Virus record (IMG/VR): IMGVR_UViG_2703718855_000002
DNA length: 39,413 bases
Strand: one strand, 5' to 3'
From: a virus
Lineage: Duplodnaviria > Heunggongvirae > Uroviricota > Caudoviricetes
Part shown: positions 11,773 to 35,982 of the stretch, piece after piece
How the letters are laid out: every line of letters starts with the position of its first letter
Position numbering within the stretch: the stretch's first letter is position 1
Made by a program: the position numbers and the translations under genes
Notes under the pieces: model-generated
What the model saw: only the letters and a program-made list of their open reading frames with translations
What the model was told of the DNA's origin: nothing
The model's database searches: none

Positions 11773-11787
11773 TTACCACGGTGGTTA
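11773..11787. promoter_or_regulatory. Operator-like palindrome, imperfect (TTACCACGGTGGTTA)
   Basis: One mismatch; overlaps terminase small subunit RBS/start. Confidence 0.3.
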
Positions 11788-12383
11788 TGATGCCTGCTGA
11801 ACCTAAAACCTATAAACGCAAATCAACGCAATTTAAGCCACTAACAGCAATGCAGGAGGCTTATTGCCAGTCATACATCAAAACGCCTGAAAACCAGACT
11901 CAGGCAGCGATTAACGCAGGATTCTCCCCAAATACAGCGGCAGTTAAAGCCAGTGTCATGATGCGCGATGAACGCATTCAAAAACGGATTGCCGAGTTGA
12001 TGGAGGAGCGCAACAAACGAATGCGCGTCAGTGCTGATTACGTTCTCATGCGCCTGGTGGAGATCGACCAGATGGACGTGATCGACATCCTCAACGACGA
12101 TGGGAGCCTTAAACCAATCCGTGAGTGGCCGAAAATCTGGCGCACTACGCTTAGTGGCTTTGATCTGTCATCGACCATCATGAACATGAACGAGGATTCG
12201 ATAGAGACAATCCTCAAAAAAATTAAATGGCCTGACAAGGTGAAGAACCTTGAGCTGATTGGTAAGCATGTTGATGTCAACGCGTTCAAAGAACGTCTGG
12301 ATGTTAATGTGAATGTGACAATTGCTGATCGCATAGCAGCAGCCAGGAAGCGACTCAAAGAACGTCAGGATGGTAATCAGTGA
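11787..12383 (+). CDS. Terminase small subunit
   Basis: Start ATG 11787 (MMPAEPKTYKRK), downstream of terminator; the track TTG start at 11709 lies inside the terminator; precedes large subunit with overlapping stop/start. Confidence 0.7.
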   Translation: MMPAEPKTYKRKSTQFKPLTAMQEAYCQSYIKTPENQTQAAINAGFSPNTAAVKASVMMRDERIQKRIAELMEERNKRMRVSADYVLMRLVEIDQMDVIDILNDDGSLKPIREWPKIWRTTLSGFDLSSTIMNMNEDSIETILKKIKWPDKVKNLELIGKHVDVNAFKERLDVNVNVTIADRIAAARKRLKERQDGNQ

Positions 12384-13855
12384 CAGATACAGAGTTATCT
12401 CCTGAAGAGCAGTTGATCGAGGATATTGCAGGGTTCACTCACGATCCGCTTGGCTATGCCCTCTATGCGTTCCCGTGGGGGGAAGAGGGGACTGAACTGG
12501 CACATGCCACCGGCCCACGTCAGTGGCAGGCTGATGCGTTCCGAGAGATACGTGATCACCTGCAGAATCCAGAGACGCGCTATCAGCCGCTTATGCTGGC
12601 ACGCGCTTCTGGTCACGGTATTGGTAAATCCGCATTCATCTCAATGCTGATCAACTGGGGCATGTCCACTTGCGAGGATTGTAAGGTCGTGGTGACCGCC
12701 AACACCGACAACCAGCTACGAACGAAGACCTGGCCGGAAATTATCAAGTGGTCGAACCTTGCTATCACGAAAGAGTGGTTTACCTGTACCGCTACCGCGA
12801 TGTACAGCAATGACCCTGGGCACGACAAGCGGTGGCGAGCTGACGCAATCCCCTGGTCTGAGCACAACACTGAGGCATTCGCCGGACTACACAACGAGCG
12901 AAAACGCATCATCGTGGTATTCGATGAAGCGTCGAACATTGCGGATCTGGTGTGGGAAGTTGCTGAGGGTGCGCTTACGGACGAAGACACTGAGATTATC
13001 TGGGTGGCGTTCGGAAACCCTACACGTAACACCGGACGTTTCCGCGAATGTTTCCGCAAATATAAACACCGCTGGAAAACTGCGCAGATTGACAGCCGAA
13101 CGGTGGAAGGCACTAACAAACAGCAGTTGCAGAAATGGGTTGATGACTACGGGGAAGACAGCGACTTCGTTAAAATCCGTGTGCGCGGCATATTCCCTGA
13201 TGCATCTGAATTGCAGTTTATCCCTACCGGTCTTACTGATGAGGCAATGAAACGGGTGGTAACCGCTGCGCAGGTGGCGCATGCTCCGGTGATAATCGGT
13301 GTTGACCCGGCATATTCAGGCGTTGATGACGCGGTGATATACCTGCGGCAGGGGCTACACAGTAAGGTGCTGTGGACTGGCAACAAGACTACCGACGATC
13401 TGATTATGGCGAAGCGTATCGCTGACTTTGAAGACCAGTATCAGGCTGACGCGGTGTTCATCGACTTCGGTTACGGAACCGGTCTGAAGTCAATCGGTGA
13501 CGGATGGGGTCGTACATGGCAACTTGTTCCGTTCGGTGGCGCGTCTACTGACCCGCAGATGCTCAACAAGCGTGGGGAGATGTTCAATTCATGCAAGACA
13601 TGGCTGAGGCTGGGCGGCATGCTGGATGACCAGGAAACAGCAGACGACCTGTCGGCGGCAGAGTACAAAGTTCGAGTGGATGGTAAAATCGTTATCGAAC
13701 CGAAGGAAGATATCAAGGAGCGGCTTGGGCGTTCGCCGGGTAAAGGCGATGCGCTACTGCTGACGTTTGCGTTCCCTGTGTCTAAGCGTCTGCGAATTCC
13801 CGGGCAGCAGAACCAGCAAGGCAAGGCCATCACAGATTACGATCCCTATGCTTAA
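12380..13855 (+). CDS. Terminase large subunit
   Basis: 491 aa; Walker A-like GHGIGKS; GTG start overlapping small subunit stop. Confidence 0.85.
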   Translation: MTDTELSPEEQLIEDIAGFTHDPLGYALYAFPWGEEGTELAHATGPRQWQADAFREIRDHLQNPETRYQPLMLARASGHGIGKSAFISMLINWGMSTCEDCKVVVTANTDNQLRTKTWPEIIKWSNLAITKEWFTCTATAMYSNDPGHDKRWRADAIPWSEHNTEAFAGLHNERKRIIVVFDEASNIADLVWEVAEGALTDEDTEIIWVAFGNPTRNTGRFRECFRKYKHRWKTAQIDSRTVEGTNKQQLQKWVDDYGEDSDFVKIRVRGIFPDASELQFIPTGLTDEAMKRVVTAAQVAHAPVIIGVDPAYSGVDDAVIYLRQGLHSKVLWTGNKTTDDLIMAKRIADFEDQYQADAVFIDFGYGTGLKSIGDGWGRTWQLVPFGGASTDPQMLNKRGEMFNSCKTWLRLGGMLDDQETADDLSAAEYKVRVDGKIVIEPKEDIKERLGRSPGKGDALLLTFAFPVSKRLRIPGQQNQQGKAITDYDPYA

Positions 13856-33612: not shown

Positions 33613-33639
33613 ATCCATATGTGGTTTTTCAGGTAATAG
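33613..33639 (+). promoter_or_regulatory. Candidate late promoter: ATCCATATGTGGTT - 7 nt - TAATAG (tailspike)
   Basis: Same motif/spacing as at 14969 and 36253. Confidence 0.45.
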
Positions 33640-33690
33640 AATAACCAGATATGCGGCGCAACGGGTGCTGCGACTATCTGGAGATTTAAC

Positions 33691-35982
33691 ATGACGGTCT
33701 CAACCGAAGTTGACCACAACGAATACACAGGCAATGGCGTTACGACATCGTTTCCGTATACCTTCCGCATTTTCAAAAAATCCGACCTGGTTGTTCAGGT
33801 GGTTGACCTTGATGAAAATATCGCTGTGCTGGATCTTGATACTGATTACACTGTCACTGGGGCTGGTGGATACAACGGTGGCAATGTAATTTTGTCGAAG
33901 GCATTGGCCAGCGGTCATCAGATTTCTATATCTCGAGAGCTACCAGTTACGCAGGAAACCGATCTGCGCAATCAAGGTAAGTTCTTTGCTGAAGTGCATG
34001 AGGATGCTTTTGATAAGCTCACTATGCTTATACAGCGGGCATATAGCGTTTTTCGCTTAGCTCTGCGTAAACCATCAAGCATTGCGAACTGGTACGACGC
34101 GCTGAACAACTGCATCCGCAATTTGCGCGATCCCTGCAACCCGCAGGATGCCGCCACCAAAAATTATGTCGATACGCTCGCAAACAGCAACTTAATCCGC
34201 ACGCTGCGAGTTCCAGAAGTTATTATATCCTTGCCTGATGCTGAAACCAGAGCTAATAAGATGGTTGCATTTGATAGTATCGGCAATCCTTTAGTGGTTT
34301 TGCCTCCTTCAGGTTCTGCTTCTGATGTTCTTATTCAGTTGGCTGCCTCAGATGGAGCAAAATTATCGTTAAGTCAAGTAGCCACCGCATATGGCCTTGA
34401 TTTCTCGTTAGGCGGTGTATGGCGGGAGGGGGCGTTATCTAATGTTGATAACTGGTGGTGGTATAATAATAAAATCTACACTGGTGGTAGTGGCACTCTT
34501 CCGTCATCTCCTGCTTTGCCATGGTACGAAGTGACGGTAGCAGATTATATTTCTGTTGCTCAATTTTTCCCCATTACTGGTGATCCAGCGGCAGATAACT
34601 CAGCTAGCTTTAATGCTGCTGCAGCAGTTGCTTTATCGGCAGGAAAGAGGCTGTTTGTCCCTGCAGGAACTTACTATGTTAAGTCACCAGTTGATTTAAC
34701 AATAGGCACTGTTGACCTATTCGGGGATGGCGTTGAGAAGTCATTCATTATTGCGGGGAGTGGGTTCACTGGAGAGGCAGTTGTCAACATGTACTACGAA
34801 ACTGACTCTATAAGACGTAGCACATCTATCTATCACGTTACAGTTGATGGGAACAACATCGCCAACTATCCTTGCCGAATTCAATATGTTCACCTAGGAA
34901 GAACCCATAATTGTCGTTTCATCAATGGCGCGGTGGCGAACTTATATACTATAAACGACTGGCTTAATACCTATGATTGCTGTTCTTTTGTTCCTGCGCC
35001 AAATCGCGGAGTTCACCTTGCTGGGGCTAACAACCGCGTAACGTTCAATAACTGTGGATTTGCATCAAATAAGGTCGGTGAATATGCCTTTTATGCTTCT
35101 GGTACTTCCCCTATTGAAGGTTTAAGCTTAATTGGATGTGACCTTGAGTTCGGCATTGGGCATGGCATGTACTTAAATACCCGAGTGACCAATATTGTTG
35201 GCGGGTACTATGGCGAAGCGATACAAGGCGATATTTTTACGGTTCCAGATGGAGTAGTAAAAATAAGCGGTGTAAATGCTTTTGTAGGATATTACAATGA
35301 GGGAGGAAGGTTTGTTGTTCTTGACAATGATGCTGTAGTTAAGGTTGATAGTTGCTGGATTGCAGATCAGGGCAACTTTAAACTTTCATTACTTGCATCA
35401 AGCGCTGACAACAGGGCTCATGCTGTATTTACTAATTGTTATATTGGTGCAACTGTGTCTGGCCCACAAGTTATGGAAGGAGATTGTTTAGGCAAGATCA
35501 ATATGAGGACGTTTGCAGAAAGCAGGGCAATCCTTTATACAATGAACAATACTGGTAATACAGTAACCAGAAGCAGATACAACTCAATAGGAGCAAAAAT
35601 AACCATTAATACCGTAACGAGCCCTAGTTCTAACAAGCTATCACTTAATACTAAGATAAAAGACAGAGGGTGGAAGGTTAACGACCGGGTGTACTTAATT
35701 GTTACTTATGAGAGTAATGTTGATATAAATATTTATTTAAGCAGTTCGATATATGCTGCATCGGATGCAACGCTATTTGGAACTTTACCATCAACAAATG
35801 GTTCTTTATCTACGTGTTATATTGCTAATAATATTATTCCGGAAAATACATCTGAGATATTCGAGTTTTATGTAAATGGCGCTGGTGTTGGCGATTACTT
35901 TGCTATTCAGGATGTTACTCTTACAGACAGGTCATTCACTTTCAGTGGAACAACTATGACCACTTTTGCTAAGGCTGAATAA
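33691..35982 (+). CDS. Tailspike / tail fibre (T7 gp17-like N-terminal anchor, C-terminal parallel beta-helix-like domain)
   Basis: 763 aa; N-terminal YTGNGVTTSFPYTF...TDYTV pattern; C-terminal half visibly AT-richer (by eye). Confidence 0.75.
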   Translation: MTVSTEVDHNEYTGNGVTTSFPYTFRIFKKSDLVVQVVDLDENIAVLDLDTDYTVTGAGGYNGGNVILSKALASGHQISISRELPVTQETDLRNQGKFFAEVHEDAFDKLTMLIQRAYSVFRLALRKPSSIANWYDALNNCIRNLRDPCNPQDAATKNYVDTLANSNLIRTLRVPEVIISLPDAETRANKMVAFDSIGNPLVVLPPSGSASDVLIQLAASDGAKLSLSQVATAYGLDFSLGGVWREGALSNVDNWWWYNNKIYTGGSGTLPSSPALPWYEVTVADYISVAQFFPITGDPAADNSASFNAAAAVALSAGKRLFVPAGTYYVKSPVDLTIGTVDLFGDGVEKSFIIAGSGFTGEAVVNMYYETDSIRRSTSIYHVTVDGNNIANYPCRIQYVHLGRTHNCRFINGAVANLYTINDWLNTYDCCSFVPAPNRGVHLAGANNRVTFNNCGFASNKVGEYAFYASGTSPIEGLSLIGCDLEFGIGHGMYLNTRVTNIVGGYYGEAIQGDIFTVPDGVVKISGVNAFVGYYNEGGRFVVLDNDAVVKVDSCWIADQGNFKLSLLASSADNRAHAVFTNCYIGATVSGPQVMEGDCLGKINMRTFAESRAILYTMNNTGNTVTRSRYNSIGAKITINTVTSPSSNKLSLNTKIKDRGWKVNDRVYLIVTYESNVDINIYLSSSIYAASDATLFGTLPSTNGSLSTCYIANNIIPENTSEIFEFYVNGAGVGDYFAIQDVTLTDRSFTFSGTTMTTFAKAE

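What the first reader, a model, noticed from the sequence alone, without database searches (positions are those of the whole stretch)
11787..35982. Chimeric architecture: T7-like virion module under lambdoid-style regulation in an integrase-bearing prophage
Portal, tail tube A/B, internal virion proteins and the tailspike N-terminus resemble T7 gp8/gp11/gp12/gp14-16/gp17 as recalled, while integrase, repressor/Cro-like pair, O/P replication genes, exonuclease/RecT pair and GH19-Rz/Rz1 lysis are lambdoid. No RNA polymerase gene is present, so late transcription must use host polymerase. Assignment rests on remembered sequence patterns, not a search.
Basis: partly seen in the sequence, partly recalled or inferred. 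Interest (0 to 1): 0.5.

Follow-up and report, generated by a model that had tools for sequence, protein, structure and literature searches.

The report
Known epsilon15-like (Uetakevirus) E. coli prophage
The window is a complete phiV10/epsilon15-type temperate short-tailed phage integrated next to guaA in E. coli; its mix of a distantly T7-like portal, tail and ejection module with lambda-like early genes is real, but it is the long-described hallmark of this phage genus, so the finding is ordinary.

Summary
The window is a whole prophage (1 to about 38254) inserted at the 3' end of guaA. It is about 97% identical to phiV10-type phages (genus Uetakevirus) over most of its length and 99.7% identical at its right end (34100-39413) to a prophage in E. 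coli ETEC4090.

The T7 link is real but remote. Pairwise searches against T7 proteins find nothing. Profiles and predicted folds place the portal, adaptor, nozzle, gp13/gp14-like internal proteins and the tailspike anchor with their T7 counterparts. The capsid shell, maturation protease and terminase are not T7-type. No RNA polymerase gene exists.

"Lambdoid" fits the gene layout: int, xis, RecT/exonuclease, divergent repressor/cro, an initiator with internal iterons, lambda P, GH19 endolysin and Rz/Rz1. The initiator is not lambda O, and no N or Q homologue is found. Repressor operators sit upstream of every late operon. A conserved SOS box upstream of a small antirepressor-like gene points to antirepressor-driven induction.

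All of this chimerism is published for epsilon15 and phiV10. Minor novelties:
- a tailspike receptor domain absent from 50,697 phage records
- an unannotated conserved palindrome linked to an uncharacterised 112-aa Cys-rich protein

The parts
1..1257 (+). P4-type tyrosine integrase. attL lies about 190 bp before the window start.
   Evidence: PF13356, PF22022 and PF00589. 87% aa identity to the epsilon15 integrase. In ETEC4090 the gene follows guaA.
1260..5276 (-). Leftward early operon: Ser/Thr phosphatase, MT-A70 methyltransferase, PerC-like activator (2559-2858), AlpA-like excisionase (2968-3216), RecT (3266-4147), PD-(D/E)XK RecE-like exonuclease (4144-4965) and a 104-aa ORF.
   Evidence: Pfam, PHROGs, ETEC4090 annotation.
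5435..5513 (.). Two repressor operators (ATTACC-N5-GGTAAT) flanking a promoter-like site for the leftward operon.
   Evidence: Equivalent sites in epsilon15 are annotated as repressor binding sites.
5570..6154 (-). Prophage repressor, 194 aa, with two HTH motifs and no S24 peptidase domain.
   Evidence: PF01381 and related hits. 42% identity to the epsilon15 gp38 repressor.
6209..6539 (+). Operator at 6209-6225, a promoter-like site, and the Cro-like gene (6309-6539), divergent from the repressor gene. A terminator-like hairpin follows at 6561-6580.
   Evidence: phrog_35 transcriptional repressor.
6906..7721 (+). Replication initiator (HTH_36 + DnaT domain) with six iteron-like repeats at 7160-7312, the presumed origin.
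   Evidence: Pfam, NCBIfam DnaT, repeat family D1.
7703..8503 (+). Lambda P-family helicase loader.
   Evidence: PF06992, E 3e-56.
8540..11337 (+). Two operators (8540, 8602), then a nin-like region: DUF1064, a 149-aa ORF, Ead/Ea22, DUF551 and NinX.
11330..11668 (+). 112-aa epsilon15 gp49-like protein, a candidate regulator. The N-terminus is Arg-rich and the C-terminus Cys-rich.
   Evidence: phrog_536 'transcriptional regulator'. 78% identity to epsilon15 gp49. No Pfam, NCBIfam or PDB hit. Sequence.
11665..11788 (+). Control region upstream of the packaging genes: palindrome GTGACATGTCAC (11665-11676), terminator-like hairpin (11716-11735) and two repressor operators (11754-11770, 11772-11788).
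11787..13855 (+). Terminase small subunit (11787-12383) and large subunit (12380-13855). Neither is T7-type.
   Evidence: PF03592. phrog_5902 and phrog_2. T7 gp19 is phrog_38 / PF22530. 95% identity to epsilon15 TerL.
13930..14931 (.). Inter-operon region: second palindrome copy (13930-13941), leftward Gp49-family gene (13946-14317), tRNA-Arg(TCT) (14517-14593, minus strand) and an operator (14915-14931).
15242..16921 (+). Portal protein of the T7 gp8 family.
   Evidence: PF12236, E 1.4e-187. T7 gp8 matches the same family at 2.8e-113. PDB: Carin-1 portal 8.6e-180 and T7-like cyanophage P-SCSP1u 2e-5.
16918..20122 (+). Head genes that are not T7-type: Bbp19-like, protease (17211-17912), major capsid protein (17921-18913), Bbp16 cement (18965-19402), a 114-aa ORF and the gp10-like staple (19793-20122).
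   Evidence: PF25181, PF20911, PF21190 and PF21628. phrog_458 protease. The capsid protein matches BPP-1 3J4U at 9.5e-129, Carin-1 at 1e-87 and epsilon15 gp7 at 2e-85.
20119..20727 (+). Tail adaptor (tail tubular protein A, T7 gp11-type fold).
   Evidence: phrog_394 and phrog_9239. PDB: Carin-1 connector 3.9e-26. The model has pLDDT 88. Foldseek: Carin-1 5e-16, LME-1 2.5e-9, T7 gp11 7.7e-6 with TM about 0.6.
20727..23180 (+). Tail nozzle (tail tubular protein B, T7 gp12-type fold).
   Evidence: PDB: Carin-1 nozzle 1.3e-220. The model has pLDDT 88. Foldseek: T7 gp12 5e-24 with TM 0.52, against P22 gp10 8e-9 with TM 0.32. hhalign against gp12 gives E 5.7e-4.
23180..24189 (+). Internal virion proteins A (154 aa, gp13-like) and B (181 aa, T7 gp14 family).
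   Evidence: phrog_308 is shared with T7 gp13. PF24072 T7_gp14 scores 30.1 bits against a cut-off of 27. T7 gp14 is in the same family.
24189..30981 (+). Three large internal (ejection) proteins: an 837-aa protein with a lytic transglycosylase domain (24189-26702), a 600-aa protein (26699-28501) and an 824-aa IVP-D candidate (28507-30981).
   Evidence: PHROGs. The transglycosylase domain matches the N-terminus of the 1295-aa Gp29 of phage E1004 at 4e-38. Identities to epsilon15 gp15, gp16 and gp17 are 59%, 32% and 28%. epsilon15 gp17 is assigned as the T7 gp16 (IVP-D) homologue in PMC4819975. My own test was negative.
31138..33587 (-). Leftward accessory and induction region:
- third palindrome copy (31138-31149) next to a terminator
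- 210-aa ORF (31433-32065)
- Bro-N protein (32212-32937)
- small gp19-like antirepressor candidate (33238-33513)
- LexA box (33515-33534)
- operators at 32124 and 33571
33691..35982 (+). Tailspike: a conserved N-terminal anchor (about aa 1-225, T7 gp17 N-domain-like) and a beta-helix receptor-binding domain with no counterpart in the phage collection.
   Evidence: PF12708, plus PF03906 below threshold. PHROGs 1640, 8460 and 27277 are shared with T7 gp17. The Carin-1 fibre N-terminus matches at 4e-26. tblastn matches cover only aa 1-225(252).
36216..38125 (+). Operator (36216), then the lysis cassette: two holin-like genes (36319-36732, 36719-37027), GH19 endolysin (37017-37646), Rz (37643-38125) and embedded Rz1 (37842-38117).
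   Evidence: Pfam, Rz1 lipobox, operator.
38238..38254 (.). attR core ATTGAGTGGGAATGATT, a duplicate of the guaA 3' end. The host genes yfgI (38343-38882) and yfgH (38898-39413) follow.
   Evidence: The same 17-mer is present at the guaA stop in ETEC4090. Host annotation.

Best explanation
The window is a complete, apparently intact temperate podovirus of the phiV10/epsilon15 group (genus Uetakevirus), integrated at the 3' end of guaA in an E. coli chromosome.

Shown:
- Its virion combines a portal, adaptor, nozzle, small internal proteins and tailspike anchor that are remote homologues of T7 gp8, gp11, gp12, gp13, gp14 and the gp17 N-terminus. They appear in the same order as in T7.
- The capsid is the epsilon15/BPP-1 type (gp7-family shell, cement and staple proteins, maturation protease), and the terminase is not T7-type.
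- The early region follows the lambdoid layout: int-xis-recombination genes, divergent repressor/cro, an iteron-bearing initiator plus lambda P, nin-like genes, and a GH19 / Rz / Rz1 lysis cassette.
- No phage RNA polymerase is encoded.

Inferred:
- All transcription uses host RNA polymerase.
- One repressor holds the prophage silent by binding 17-bp operators (ATTACC-N5-GGTAAT) upstream of every operon, including the packaging, head-tail, tailspike and lysis operons.
- Induction works through an SOS-controlled small antirepressor, possibly helped by the Bro-N protein, rather than repressor autocleavage.
- After adsorption through an O-antigen-specific beta-helix tailspike, the internal proteins, one of which carries a lytic transglycosylase, are ejected to form the trans-envelope channel as in T7.
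For: Identity of the element:
- 97.0% identity over 87% of 11787-35982 to phiV10, typing phages 9 and 10, HEMP4, PAS61 and ZX5.
- 86% of 1-12000 aligns at 97.1% to PAS61.
- One-way identity x coverage is 0.81 to phiV10, 0.62 to Tyrion and 0.37 to epsilon15.
- RefSeq places phiV10 and epsilon15 in Uetakevirus.
- The right end (34100-39413) is 99.7% identical to the ETEC4090 chromosome, where the prophage lies between guaA and yfgI. The att core is duplicated.

T7-type parts:
- PF12236, PF24072 and phrog_308 are shared with T7.
- Adaptor and nozzle folds match T7 gp11 (7.7e-6) and gp12 (5e-24), far better than P22 gp10 (8e-9).
- The tailspike anchor shares PHROGs with gp17.
- Published HMM-HMM work links epsilon15 gp12, gp13, gp14 and gp17 to T7 (PMC4819975).
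- The Carin-1 and LME-1 virions, the closest solved structures, are described as T7-like (PMC12407071).

Parts that are not T7-type.

RNA polymerase is absent.

Regulation:
- 11 operator sites with at most one mismatch are all intergenic in a 90.5% coding window; shuffles give a mean of 0.115. The positions are conserved in phiV10, epsilon15 and Tyrion and are annotated as repressor sites in epsilon15.
- The repressor has no S24 domain.
- Each of the four genomes has a single near-consensus LexA box, upstream of the gp19-like gene.
Against: - Nothing here shows that the prophage is inducible or makes particles. The near-identical ETEC4090 copy has a frameshifted portal gene.
- The gp15/gp16 equivalence of the three large internal proteins was not demonstrable with my shallow profiles and rests on literature and synteny.
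- Repressor binding to the late-operon operators and LexA control of the gp19-like gene are inferred from motif position and conservation only.
- The tailspike receptor domain is not shared with any named Uetakevirus.
Confidence: 0.92

Rival explanations
1. A new, recently formed chimera between a T7-like (Autographiviridae) virion module and a lambdoid backbone.
For: The gene order portal to tailspike mirrors T7 gp8 to gp17. Several families are shared with T7.
Against: There is no pairwise similarity to any T7 protein and fold matches are at 11-14% identity, so the split from T7 is ancient. The same architecture occurs at 97% DNA identity in phiV10-type phages and in epsilon15, Tyrion and many prophages. 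The nozzle family alone has 18,320 clusters at 50% identity.
Confidence: 0.02
2. A temperate member of Autographiviridae proper (LUZ100-like or pelagiphage-like T7 relatives with integrases).
For: It is a podovirus-type tail module with an integrase. Such temperate T7 relatives exist (PMC10134795, listed).
Against: The defining single-subunit RNA polymerase is absent (Pfam). There is no T7-type DNA polymerase or primase-helicase; replication uses a DnaT-domain initiator plus lambda P. The capsid and terminase families differ from those of T7.
Confidence: 0.01
3. A P22-like (Lederbergvirus) prophage, because it is a temperate enterobacterial podovirus with Ead/Ea22, NinX, a Bro antirepressor and an O-antigen tailspike.
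For: Ead/Ea22, NinX and Bro-N hits. The tailspike is modular, as in P22-like phages (PMC10408124).
Against: The portal is the PF12236 (T7 gp8) family. The nozzle fold matches T7 gp12 at 5e-24, against P22 gp10 at 8e-9 with TM 0.32. P22 gp4 is not among the adaptor matches with E <= 1. The DNA matches Uetakevirus genomes, not P22.
Confidence: 0.01
4. A defective prophage remnant that looks complete but can no longer produce phage.
For: The ETEC4090 copy carries a frameshifted portal and two pseudogenes. A fragment of an integrase gene is annotated between the tailspike and holin genes there. The O-antigen-modifying gene of phiV10 and epsilon15 is missing.
Against: In the window every virion, lysis, replication and integration ORF is full length relative to phiV10 and epsilon15. 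The att core, operators and LexA box are intact.
Confidence: 0.15

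Closest known systems
Escherichia phage phiV10 and close relatives (typing phages 9/10, PAS61, HEMP4, phiv142-3, ZX5, TL-2011b); genus Uetakevirus
   Same: - About 95-98% DNA identity over 72-87% of the genome, with the same gene order from integrase to Rz/Rz1.
- The same operators, palindromes and LexA box.
   Different: - The tailspike beyond about aa 225 is unrelated.
- There is no oac O-acetyltransferase after the tailspike.
- RecE-like and RecT are separate genes here but annotated as a fusion in phiV10.
- The nin-region content differs.
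Salmonella phage epsilon15 (type of the group; cryo-EM model system)
   Same: - Same architecture and same regulatory motifs.
- Portal, adaptor and nozzle are 81-87% aa identical, TerL 95% and integrase 87%.
   Different: - The capsid cassette is only 35-43% identical; the capsid protein is closer to that of Bordetella BPP-1.
- IVP-600 and IVP-D are 32% and 28% identical.
- epsilon15 carries O-antigen polymerase conversion genes.
Cobetia phage Carin-1, Bordetella BPP-1 and Legionella LME-1 (solved virions of the same structural lineage)
   Same: The portal, capsid protein, adaptor, nozzle and fibre anchor match Carin-1 by sequence (E 1e-26 to 1e-220), the adaptor and nozzle match LME-1 (E 3e-5 and 1e-15), and the capsid protein matches BPP-1 (E 1e-128). 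The adaptor and nozzle also match Carin-1 and LME-1 by fold. The Carin-1 and LME-1 virions are described as T7-like in morphology (PMC12407071).
   Different: They infect other hosts, share no DNA similarity with the window, and have different early and regulatory genes.
Escherichia phage T7 (Autographiviridae)
   Same: - The order portal, capsid, adaptor, nozzle, gp13, gp14, large internal proteins, fibre, lysis genes is the same.
- The families PF12236, PF24072 and phrog_308 are shared.
- The gp11 and gp12 folds and the gp17-type anchor are shared.
   Different: - No detectable pairwise sequence similarity.
- No RNA polymerase and no T7 replisome.
- The capsid is the gp7 family with a protease, in place of gp10 with the gp9 scaffold.
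- The terminase is not T7-type and lies upstream of the portal.
- The transglycosylase is on a separate 837-aa protein rather than at the gp16 N-terminus.
- The lifestyle is temperate.
Lambda and the lambdoid phages (with P22 for accessory genes)
   Same: - The early region has the layout int-xis-recombination-repressor/cro-initiator-loader-nin.
- The ori iterons lie inside the initiator gene.
- The helicase loader is lambda P family.
- An Rz gene with an embedded Rz1 is present, together with Ead/Ea22 and NinX.
   Different: - The initiator is not the lambda O family.
- No N or Q homologue was found.
- Operators precede the late operons.
- The repressor has no S24 domain.
- The lysis cassette sits at the far end, after the tailspike.
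- The integrase is P4-type.
- The virion has a podovirus tail.

Membership tests
Genus Uetakevirus (phiV10/epsilon15-like temperate podoviruses) | Nucleotide similarity across the genome of about 70% or more to a member. This is the ICTV genus criterion, cited from general knowledge. | tested here: met
   One-way identity x coverage of the prophage (1-38254) against phiV10 is 0.81, with 95.4% identity in the aligned 85%. Megablast shows 97% over 87% of the virion region. The value for Tyrion is 0.62 and for epsilon15 0.37, so the window sits on the phiV10 side of the genus. It is below the 95% species line relative to phiV10. A reciprocal VIRIDIC value was not computed.
Genus Uetakevirus (phiV10/epsilon15-like temperate podoviruses) | Shared gene content and synteny, from the terminase genes to the tailspike and from the lysis cassette to the gp49-like gene. 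| tested here: met
   All 17 virion-module proteins tested, plus the integrase, repressor and gp49-like protein, have epsilon15 homologues in the same order.
Genus Uetakevirus (phiV10/epsilon15-like temperate podoviruses) | Short-tailed virion with six tailspikes. | not testable with these tools
   Only inferred, from the adaptor, nozzle and tailspike genes and their match to solved podovirus tails.
Autographiviridae (T7-like phages) | A phage-encoded single-subunit RNA polymerase that transcribes middle and late genes. | tested here: not met
   tblastn with T7 gp1 gives a best E of 0.93. No PF00940-type hit occurs in any large ORF.
Autographiviridae (T7-like phages) | T7-type portal (gp8 family). 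| tested here: met
   PF12236 at E 1.4e-187, with T7 gp8 in the same family.
Autographiviridae (T7-like phages) | gp11 adaptor and gp12 nozzle. | tested here: met
   Met at fold level only. Foldseek gives T7 gp11 at 7.7e-6 (TM about 0.6, 12% identity) and gp12 at 5e-24 (TM 0.52, 12% identity). The Pfam models Tube and Phage_nozzle do not match.
Autographiviridae (T7-like phages) | gp10-type capsid with gp9 scaffold, and gp18/gp19 terminase. | tested here: not met
   The capsid protein is PF20911, with a protease, cement and staple proteins. TerS is PF03592 and TerL is phrog_5902 / phrog_2. T7 has PF21703, phrog_38 and PF22530.
Autographiviridae (T7-like phages) | Internal core proteins gp14, gp15 and gp16. 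| tested here: inconclusive
   The gp14 family is met (PF24072, 30.1 bits against a cut-off of 27) and the gp13 PHROG is shared. For gp15 and gp16 there is no sequence or PDB signal. Only a transglycosylase domain resembles that of a gp16-type protein. The literature assigns epsilon15 gp17 as IVP-D.
Lambdoid phages | Divergent repressor/cro immunity region with flanking early operons. | tested here: met
   The repressor (5570-6154, minus strand) and the Cro-like gene (6309-6539, plus strand) are flanked by operators on both sides.
Lambdoid phages | Lambda O-type initiator and P-type loader. | tested here: inconclusive
   The P family is met (PF06992, 3e-56). The initiator is HTH_36 + DnaT, not Phage_rep_O, but it carries six internal iterons as lambda O does.
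Lambdoid phages | N- and Q-type antitermination cascade that controls late genes. | tested here: not met
   No Pfam, PHROG or NCBIfam antiterminator hit was found. Late operons carry repressor operators instead. A 112-aa Arg- and Cys-rich protein followed by a promoter-like site and a terminator occupies the Q position; its function is unknown.
Lambdoid phages | RecA-stimulated autocleavage of the repressor (S24 domain). | tested here: not met
   The repressor has only HTH domains. A conserved LexA box lies upstream of an antirepressor-like gene.
Lambdoid phages | Ability to recombine productively with lambda; siphovirus or P22-type virion. | not testable with these tools
   The virion genes are of the epsilon15 type.

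The most novel reading that the evidence does not exclude
Late gene control in this widespread phage group may use an undescribed module. A 112-aa protein (Arg-rich N-terminus, Cys-rich C-terminus, no family assignment) has a gene that is almost always followed within 0-10 nt by the perfect palindrome GTGACATGTCAC. Further exact copies lie next to the terminators that end the packaging operon and the head-tail operon.

The protein could bind this site, as DNA or as an RNA hairpin, to activate or antiterminate late transcription. That would work on top of direct repression of every late operon by the prophage repressor and SOS-triggered antirepression.

Separately, the tailspike receptor domain, absent from all 50,697 phage records searched, may define a new O-antigen specificity.
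Probability: 0.3. Interest if true: 0.4.

Novelty: already known. Interest (0 to 1): 0.12.

Why it matters
The main result is a clean-up. The 'chimeric' genome is the normal plan of a known genus, so it needs no special explanation, and annotation pipelines should name it a Uetakevirus prophage.

Its modest value lies elsewhere:
- It illustrates that the T7-type portal, adaptor, nozzle and ejectosome apparatus is an ancient module used by temperate phages that depend on host RNA polymerase.
- The regulatory wiring differs from the lambda paradigm and has not been tested experimentally: operators on all late operons, an SOS box upstream of an antirepressor-like gene, and a conserved palindrome tied to an uncharacterised protein.
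- The prophage carries a receptor-binding domain not yet seen in any sequenced phage. That could interest work on engineering O-antigen specificity.

Tried and rejected
- Pairwise phmmer of 17 window virion proteins against 16 T7 proteins, and tblastn of T7 proteins against the window, gave only noise.
- hhalign of a 35-sequence adaptor profile against T7 gp11 gave no signal. The nozzle profile against gp12 was weak (E 5.7e-4, probability 30%). The IVP-D profile against gp16 gave no signal. All three profiles were shallow.
- The exhaustive representative search with the nozzle returned 18,320 hits, but the 150 listed were all close relatives, so it could not show the T7 link.
- PDB sequence searches with TerL, IVP-D and the 112-aa protein found nothing.
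- NCBIfam gave no names for the virion proteins or the 112-aa protein.
- 720 homologues of the 112-aa protein are all 'hypothetical'.
- The 64 Synechococcus phage hits in the first megablast turned out to be the tRNA-Arg gene only.
- I considered whether the palindrome GTGACATGTCAC was a second repressor operator. I rejected this because it is absent from the immunity region and travels with the 112-aa gene into elements that have other neighbours.
- The Carin-1 (PMC10134823) and epsilon15 genome (PMC2698709) papers were not available. A text search for the palindrome found no paper.

Full report
**What is in the window.**
The 39.4-kb window is one prophage plus about 1.1 kb of host DNA.
It is similarly close to HEMP4, phiv142-3, PAS61 and ZX5.
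- It is 75-81% identical to Enterobacter phage Tyrion and Salmonella phage epsilon15.
- The left 12 kb matches the same phages; 86% aligns at 97.1% to PAS61. So does most of the right end.
- RefSeq classifies phiV10, epsilon15 and Tyrion in the genus Uetakevirus.
- One-way identity x coverage of the prophage is 0.81 to phiV10, 0.62 to Tyrion, 0.37 to epsilon15 and 0 to T7.
- The right end (34100-39413) is 99.7% identical to the chromosome of porcine E. coli ETEC4090. There the same prophage lies between guaA and yfgI.
- The 17-mer ATTGAGTGGGAATGATT at 38238-38254 repeats the 3' end of guaA. The window therefore holds attR, and attL lies about 190 bp before its first base.

**Check of the gene inventory.**

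In the flagged span:
- Portal, Bbp19-like protein, protease, major capsid protein, Bbp16-type cement, a 114-aa ORF and a gp10-type staple.
- A 202-aa adaptor and an 817-aa nozzle.
- Internal proteins of 154, 181, 837, 600 and 824 aa.
- A leftward accessory region, then the tailspike.

Outside the flagged span:
- A P4-type integrase, an AlpA-like excisionase, RecT and a PD-(D/E)XK exonuclease.
- A two-HTH repressor divergent from a Cro-like gene.
- An initiator, a lambda-P-family loader and nin-like genes.
- Two holin-like genes, a GH19 endolysin, and Rz with an embedded Rz1 (lipobox LAGC).

No RNA polymerase is encoded.

**How T7-like is the virion module?**
There is no detectable pairwise similarity to any T7 protein. 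phmmer gives at best E 1.4e-3 (portal against gp8, in a 16-protein database), and tblastn gives nothing below E 0.03. The relation appears only with profiles and folds.

| Component | Evidence for a T7 link |
|---|---|
| Portal | Window protein and T7 gp8 both match PF12236 (E 1e-187 and 3e-113) |
| 154-aa protein | Falls in phrog_308 together with T7 gp13 |
| 181-aa protein | Passes the Pfam threshold of the T7_gp14 family |
| Tailspike N-terminus | Shares PHROGs 1640, 8460 and 27277 with T7 gp17; scores below threshold on PF03906 |
| Adaptor | Model pLDDT 88; after Carin-1 and LME-1, matches adaptors of T7-like phages, with T7 gp11 at E 7.7e-6 (TM about 0.6) |
| Nozzle | Model pLDDT 88; matches T7 gp12 at E 5e-24 (TM 0.52), against P22 gp10 at E 8e-9 (TM 0.32) |

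Identities in the fold matches are 11-14%.

The closest solved structures by sequence are the portal, capsid, connector, nozzle and fibre anchor of the marine phage Carin-1, and the LME-1 tail. [quoted passage not shown]

Gene order from portal to tailspike, and then to the lysis genes, parallels T7 gp8 to gp17 to gp17.5/18.5.

**What is not T7-like.**
- The capsid protein belongs to the epsilon15 gp7 family. Its best PDB matches are BPP-1 at 1e-128, Carin-1 and epsilon15. It comes with a protease, a cement protein and a staple protein. T7 instead uses PF21703 and the gp9 scaffold.
- TerS and TerL are of other families and lie upstream of the portal.
- The three large internal proteins could not be tied to gp15 or gp16 here. 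The one link is that the 837-aa protein has a lytic transglycosylase domain like that at the N-terminus of a 1295-aa gp16-type protein of phage E1004.

**Prior knowledge.**
Hardies et al. 2016 (PMC4819975) already reported the following:
- Strong HMM-HMM matching between epsilon15 gp12 and T7 gp12.
- epsilon15 gp17 as the IVP-D (gp16) homologue, with gp15 and gp16 as IVP-C candidates.
- Terminase and capsid genes of epsilon15 that group with siphoviruses.

The epsilon15 RefSeq record notes an HHpred match of its gp11 to T7 tail tubular protein A. Swapping of tailspike receptor domains behind a conserved anchor in Uetakevirus prophages is also published (PMC10408124).

**How lambdoid is the regulation?**
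The early-region layout is lambdoid. The initiator gene contains six iteron-like repeats (7160-7312), as lambda O does, and is followed by a lambda-P-family gene.

Several features differ from lambda:
- The initiator is an HTH_36/DnaT-domain protein.
- No N or Q homologue was found.
- The epsilon15 operator ATTACC-N5-GGTAAT occurs 11 times with at most one mismatch. Every copy is intergenic in a window that is 90.5% coding, against a shuffle mean of 0.115.
- The operators flank the repressor and cro genes. They also sit directly upstream of the post-replication genes, terS, the portal operon, the tailspike and the holin genes.
- phiV10, epsilon15 and Tyrion have the same layout. The epsilon15 record annotates these sites as repressor-binding.
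- The repressor has no S24 autocleavage domain.
- Each of the four genomes has exactly one near-consensus SOS box. In the window it is AACTGTATATTTATACAGTA at 33515-33534, immediately upstream of the small leftward gp19-like gene. That gene has a weak antirepressor PHROG hit, and a Bro-N gene lies beyond it.

I infer direct repression of all operons by a single repressor, and SOS induction through an antirepressor of the 186 Tum / Gifsy type. That mechanism is reviewed in PMC7380047. None of this is shown experimentally.

**An unannotated element.**
The perfect palindrome GTGACATGTCAC occurs three times:
- at 11665, overlapping the stop of the 112-aa gp49-like gene and 40 nt before a terminator-like hairpin
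- at 13930, just after terL
- at 31138, just before the terminator that ends the head-tail operon

Exact copies lie at the same three places in epsilon15 and at two of them in phiV10 and Tyrion. In those two records the third falls at the end of the record.

In an IMG/VR scan, 70 of 120 loci that carry the motif encode relatives of this phage's proteins. In 41 of them the palindrome lies 0-10 nt after the stop of the 112-aa homologue, even at 46-52% aa identity. In about ten loci the pair is followed by excisionase and integrase genes instead of terminase.

The protein has an Arg-rich N-terminus and a Cys-rich C-terminus and no family assignment. A regulator with its cognate site is a reasonable guess, but it remains a guess.

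**Other points.**
- The tailspike matches sequenced phages only in residues 1-225(252). Its beta-helix receptor domain has no tblastn match in 50,697 phage records. Only 2 of 5,426 complete E. coli genomes match at least 80% of the segment 34100-39413, which includes it.
- The phiV10 and epsilon15 O-antigen conversion genes are absent.
- The capsid cassette is a mosaic relative to epsilon15. It is 35-43% aa identical, whereas the flanking portal, adaptor and nozzle are 81-87% identical.

**Verdict.**
The element is a phiV10-type Uetakevirus prophage, which is already known, and interest is low. The small leads are the untested regulatory wiring and the orphan receptor-binding domain.

Noticed in passing
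window 5435-5513, 6209-6225, 8540-8618, 11754-11788, 14915-14931, 32124-32140, 33571-33587, 36216-36232: The epsilon15-type repressor operator ATTACC-N5-GGTAAT occurs 11 times with at most one mismatch, against a shuffle mean of 0.115. Every copy is intergenic, and copies lie directly upstream of the terS, portal, tailspike and holin operons. The layout is conserved in phiV10, epsilon15 and Tyrion.
   Followed up: partly
window 11665-11676, 13930-13941, 31138-31149; also L004 (epsilon15) 39612, 2142, 19517: The perfect 12-bp palindrome GTGACATGTCAC sits next to terminator-like hairpins at late-operon boundaries and is not annotated in RefSeq. In IMG/VR it lies 0-10 nt after the stop of the 112-aa gp49-like gene in 41 loci. 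It accompanies that gene even where excisionase and integrase genes follow instead of terminase. No paper containing the sequence was found.
   Followed up: partly
window 33515-33534: A near-consensus LexA box (18 of 20 positions) lies immediately upstream of the small leftward gp19-like gene (33238-33513). phiV10, epsilon15 and Tyrion each have one such box at the equivalent place. The repressor lacks an S24 domain, which suggests SOS-controlled antirepressor induction.
   Followed up: partly
window 34366-35982 (tailspike aa 226-763) and 35983-36318: The receptor-binding domain has no tblastn match in 50,697 phage records. Only 2 of 5,426 complete E. coli genomes match at least 80% of 34100-39413, the segment that contains it. 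In ETEC4090 the spacer after the tailspike is annotated as an integrase gene fragment, and the O-acetyltransferase of phiV10 is missing. Both are consistent with a recombinational swap.
   Followed up: partly
window 7160-7312: Six iteron-like repeats (core CCCAAAAACGGGA, spacing 18-45 bp) lie inside the DnaT-domain initiator gene. This is the probable replication origin, arranged as in lambda O.
   Followed up: yes
window 14517-14593 (minus strand): A tRNA-Arg(TCT) gene sits between the packaging and head operons on the opposite strand. It is 89.7% identical to the tRNA-Arg of Synechococcus S-RIM2 myoviruses, which explains the 64 cyanophage hits in the first megablast.
   Followed up: yes
window 17921-20122, compared with 15242-16921 and 20119-23180: There is a mosaic inside the virion module. 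The capsid, cement and staple proteins are only 35-43% identical to epsilon15, and the capsid protein is closest to Bordetella BPP-1. The flanking portal, adaptor and nozzle are 81-87% identical.
   Followed up: partly
L002 (ETEC4090) 19118-20798 and 8144-9178: The otherwise near-identical prophage in ETEC4090 has a frameshifted portal gene, two pseudogenes in the nin region and an extra 345-aa gene left of the repressor. The window copy has an intact portal ORF.
   Followed up: no
window 20727-23180: The nozzle family is very large: 18,320 clusters at 50% identity match at E <= 1e-3, many with 100-300-aa insertions after about residue 100-300.
   Followed up: no
window 31433-32065 (minus strand): A 210-aa protein of unknown function (phrog_1349, no Pfam hit) has its own upstream operator (32124-32140). 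It lies between the end of the head-tail operon and the Bro-N gene and may be a moron or a lysogeny-expressed gene.
   Followed up: no
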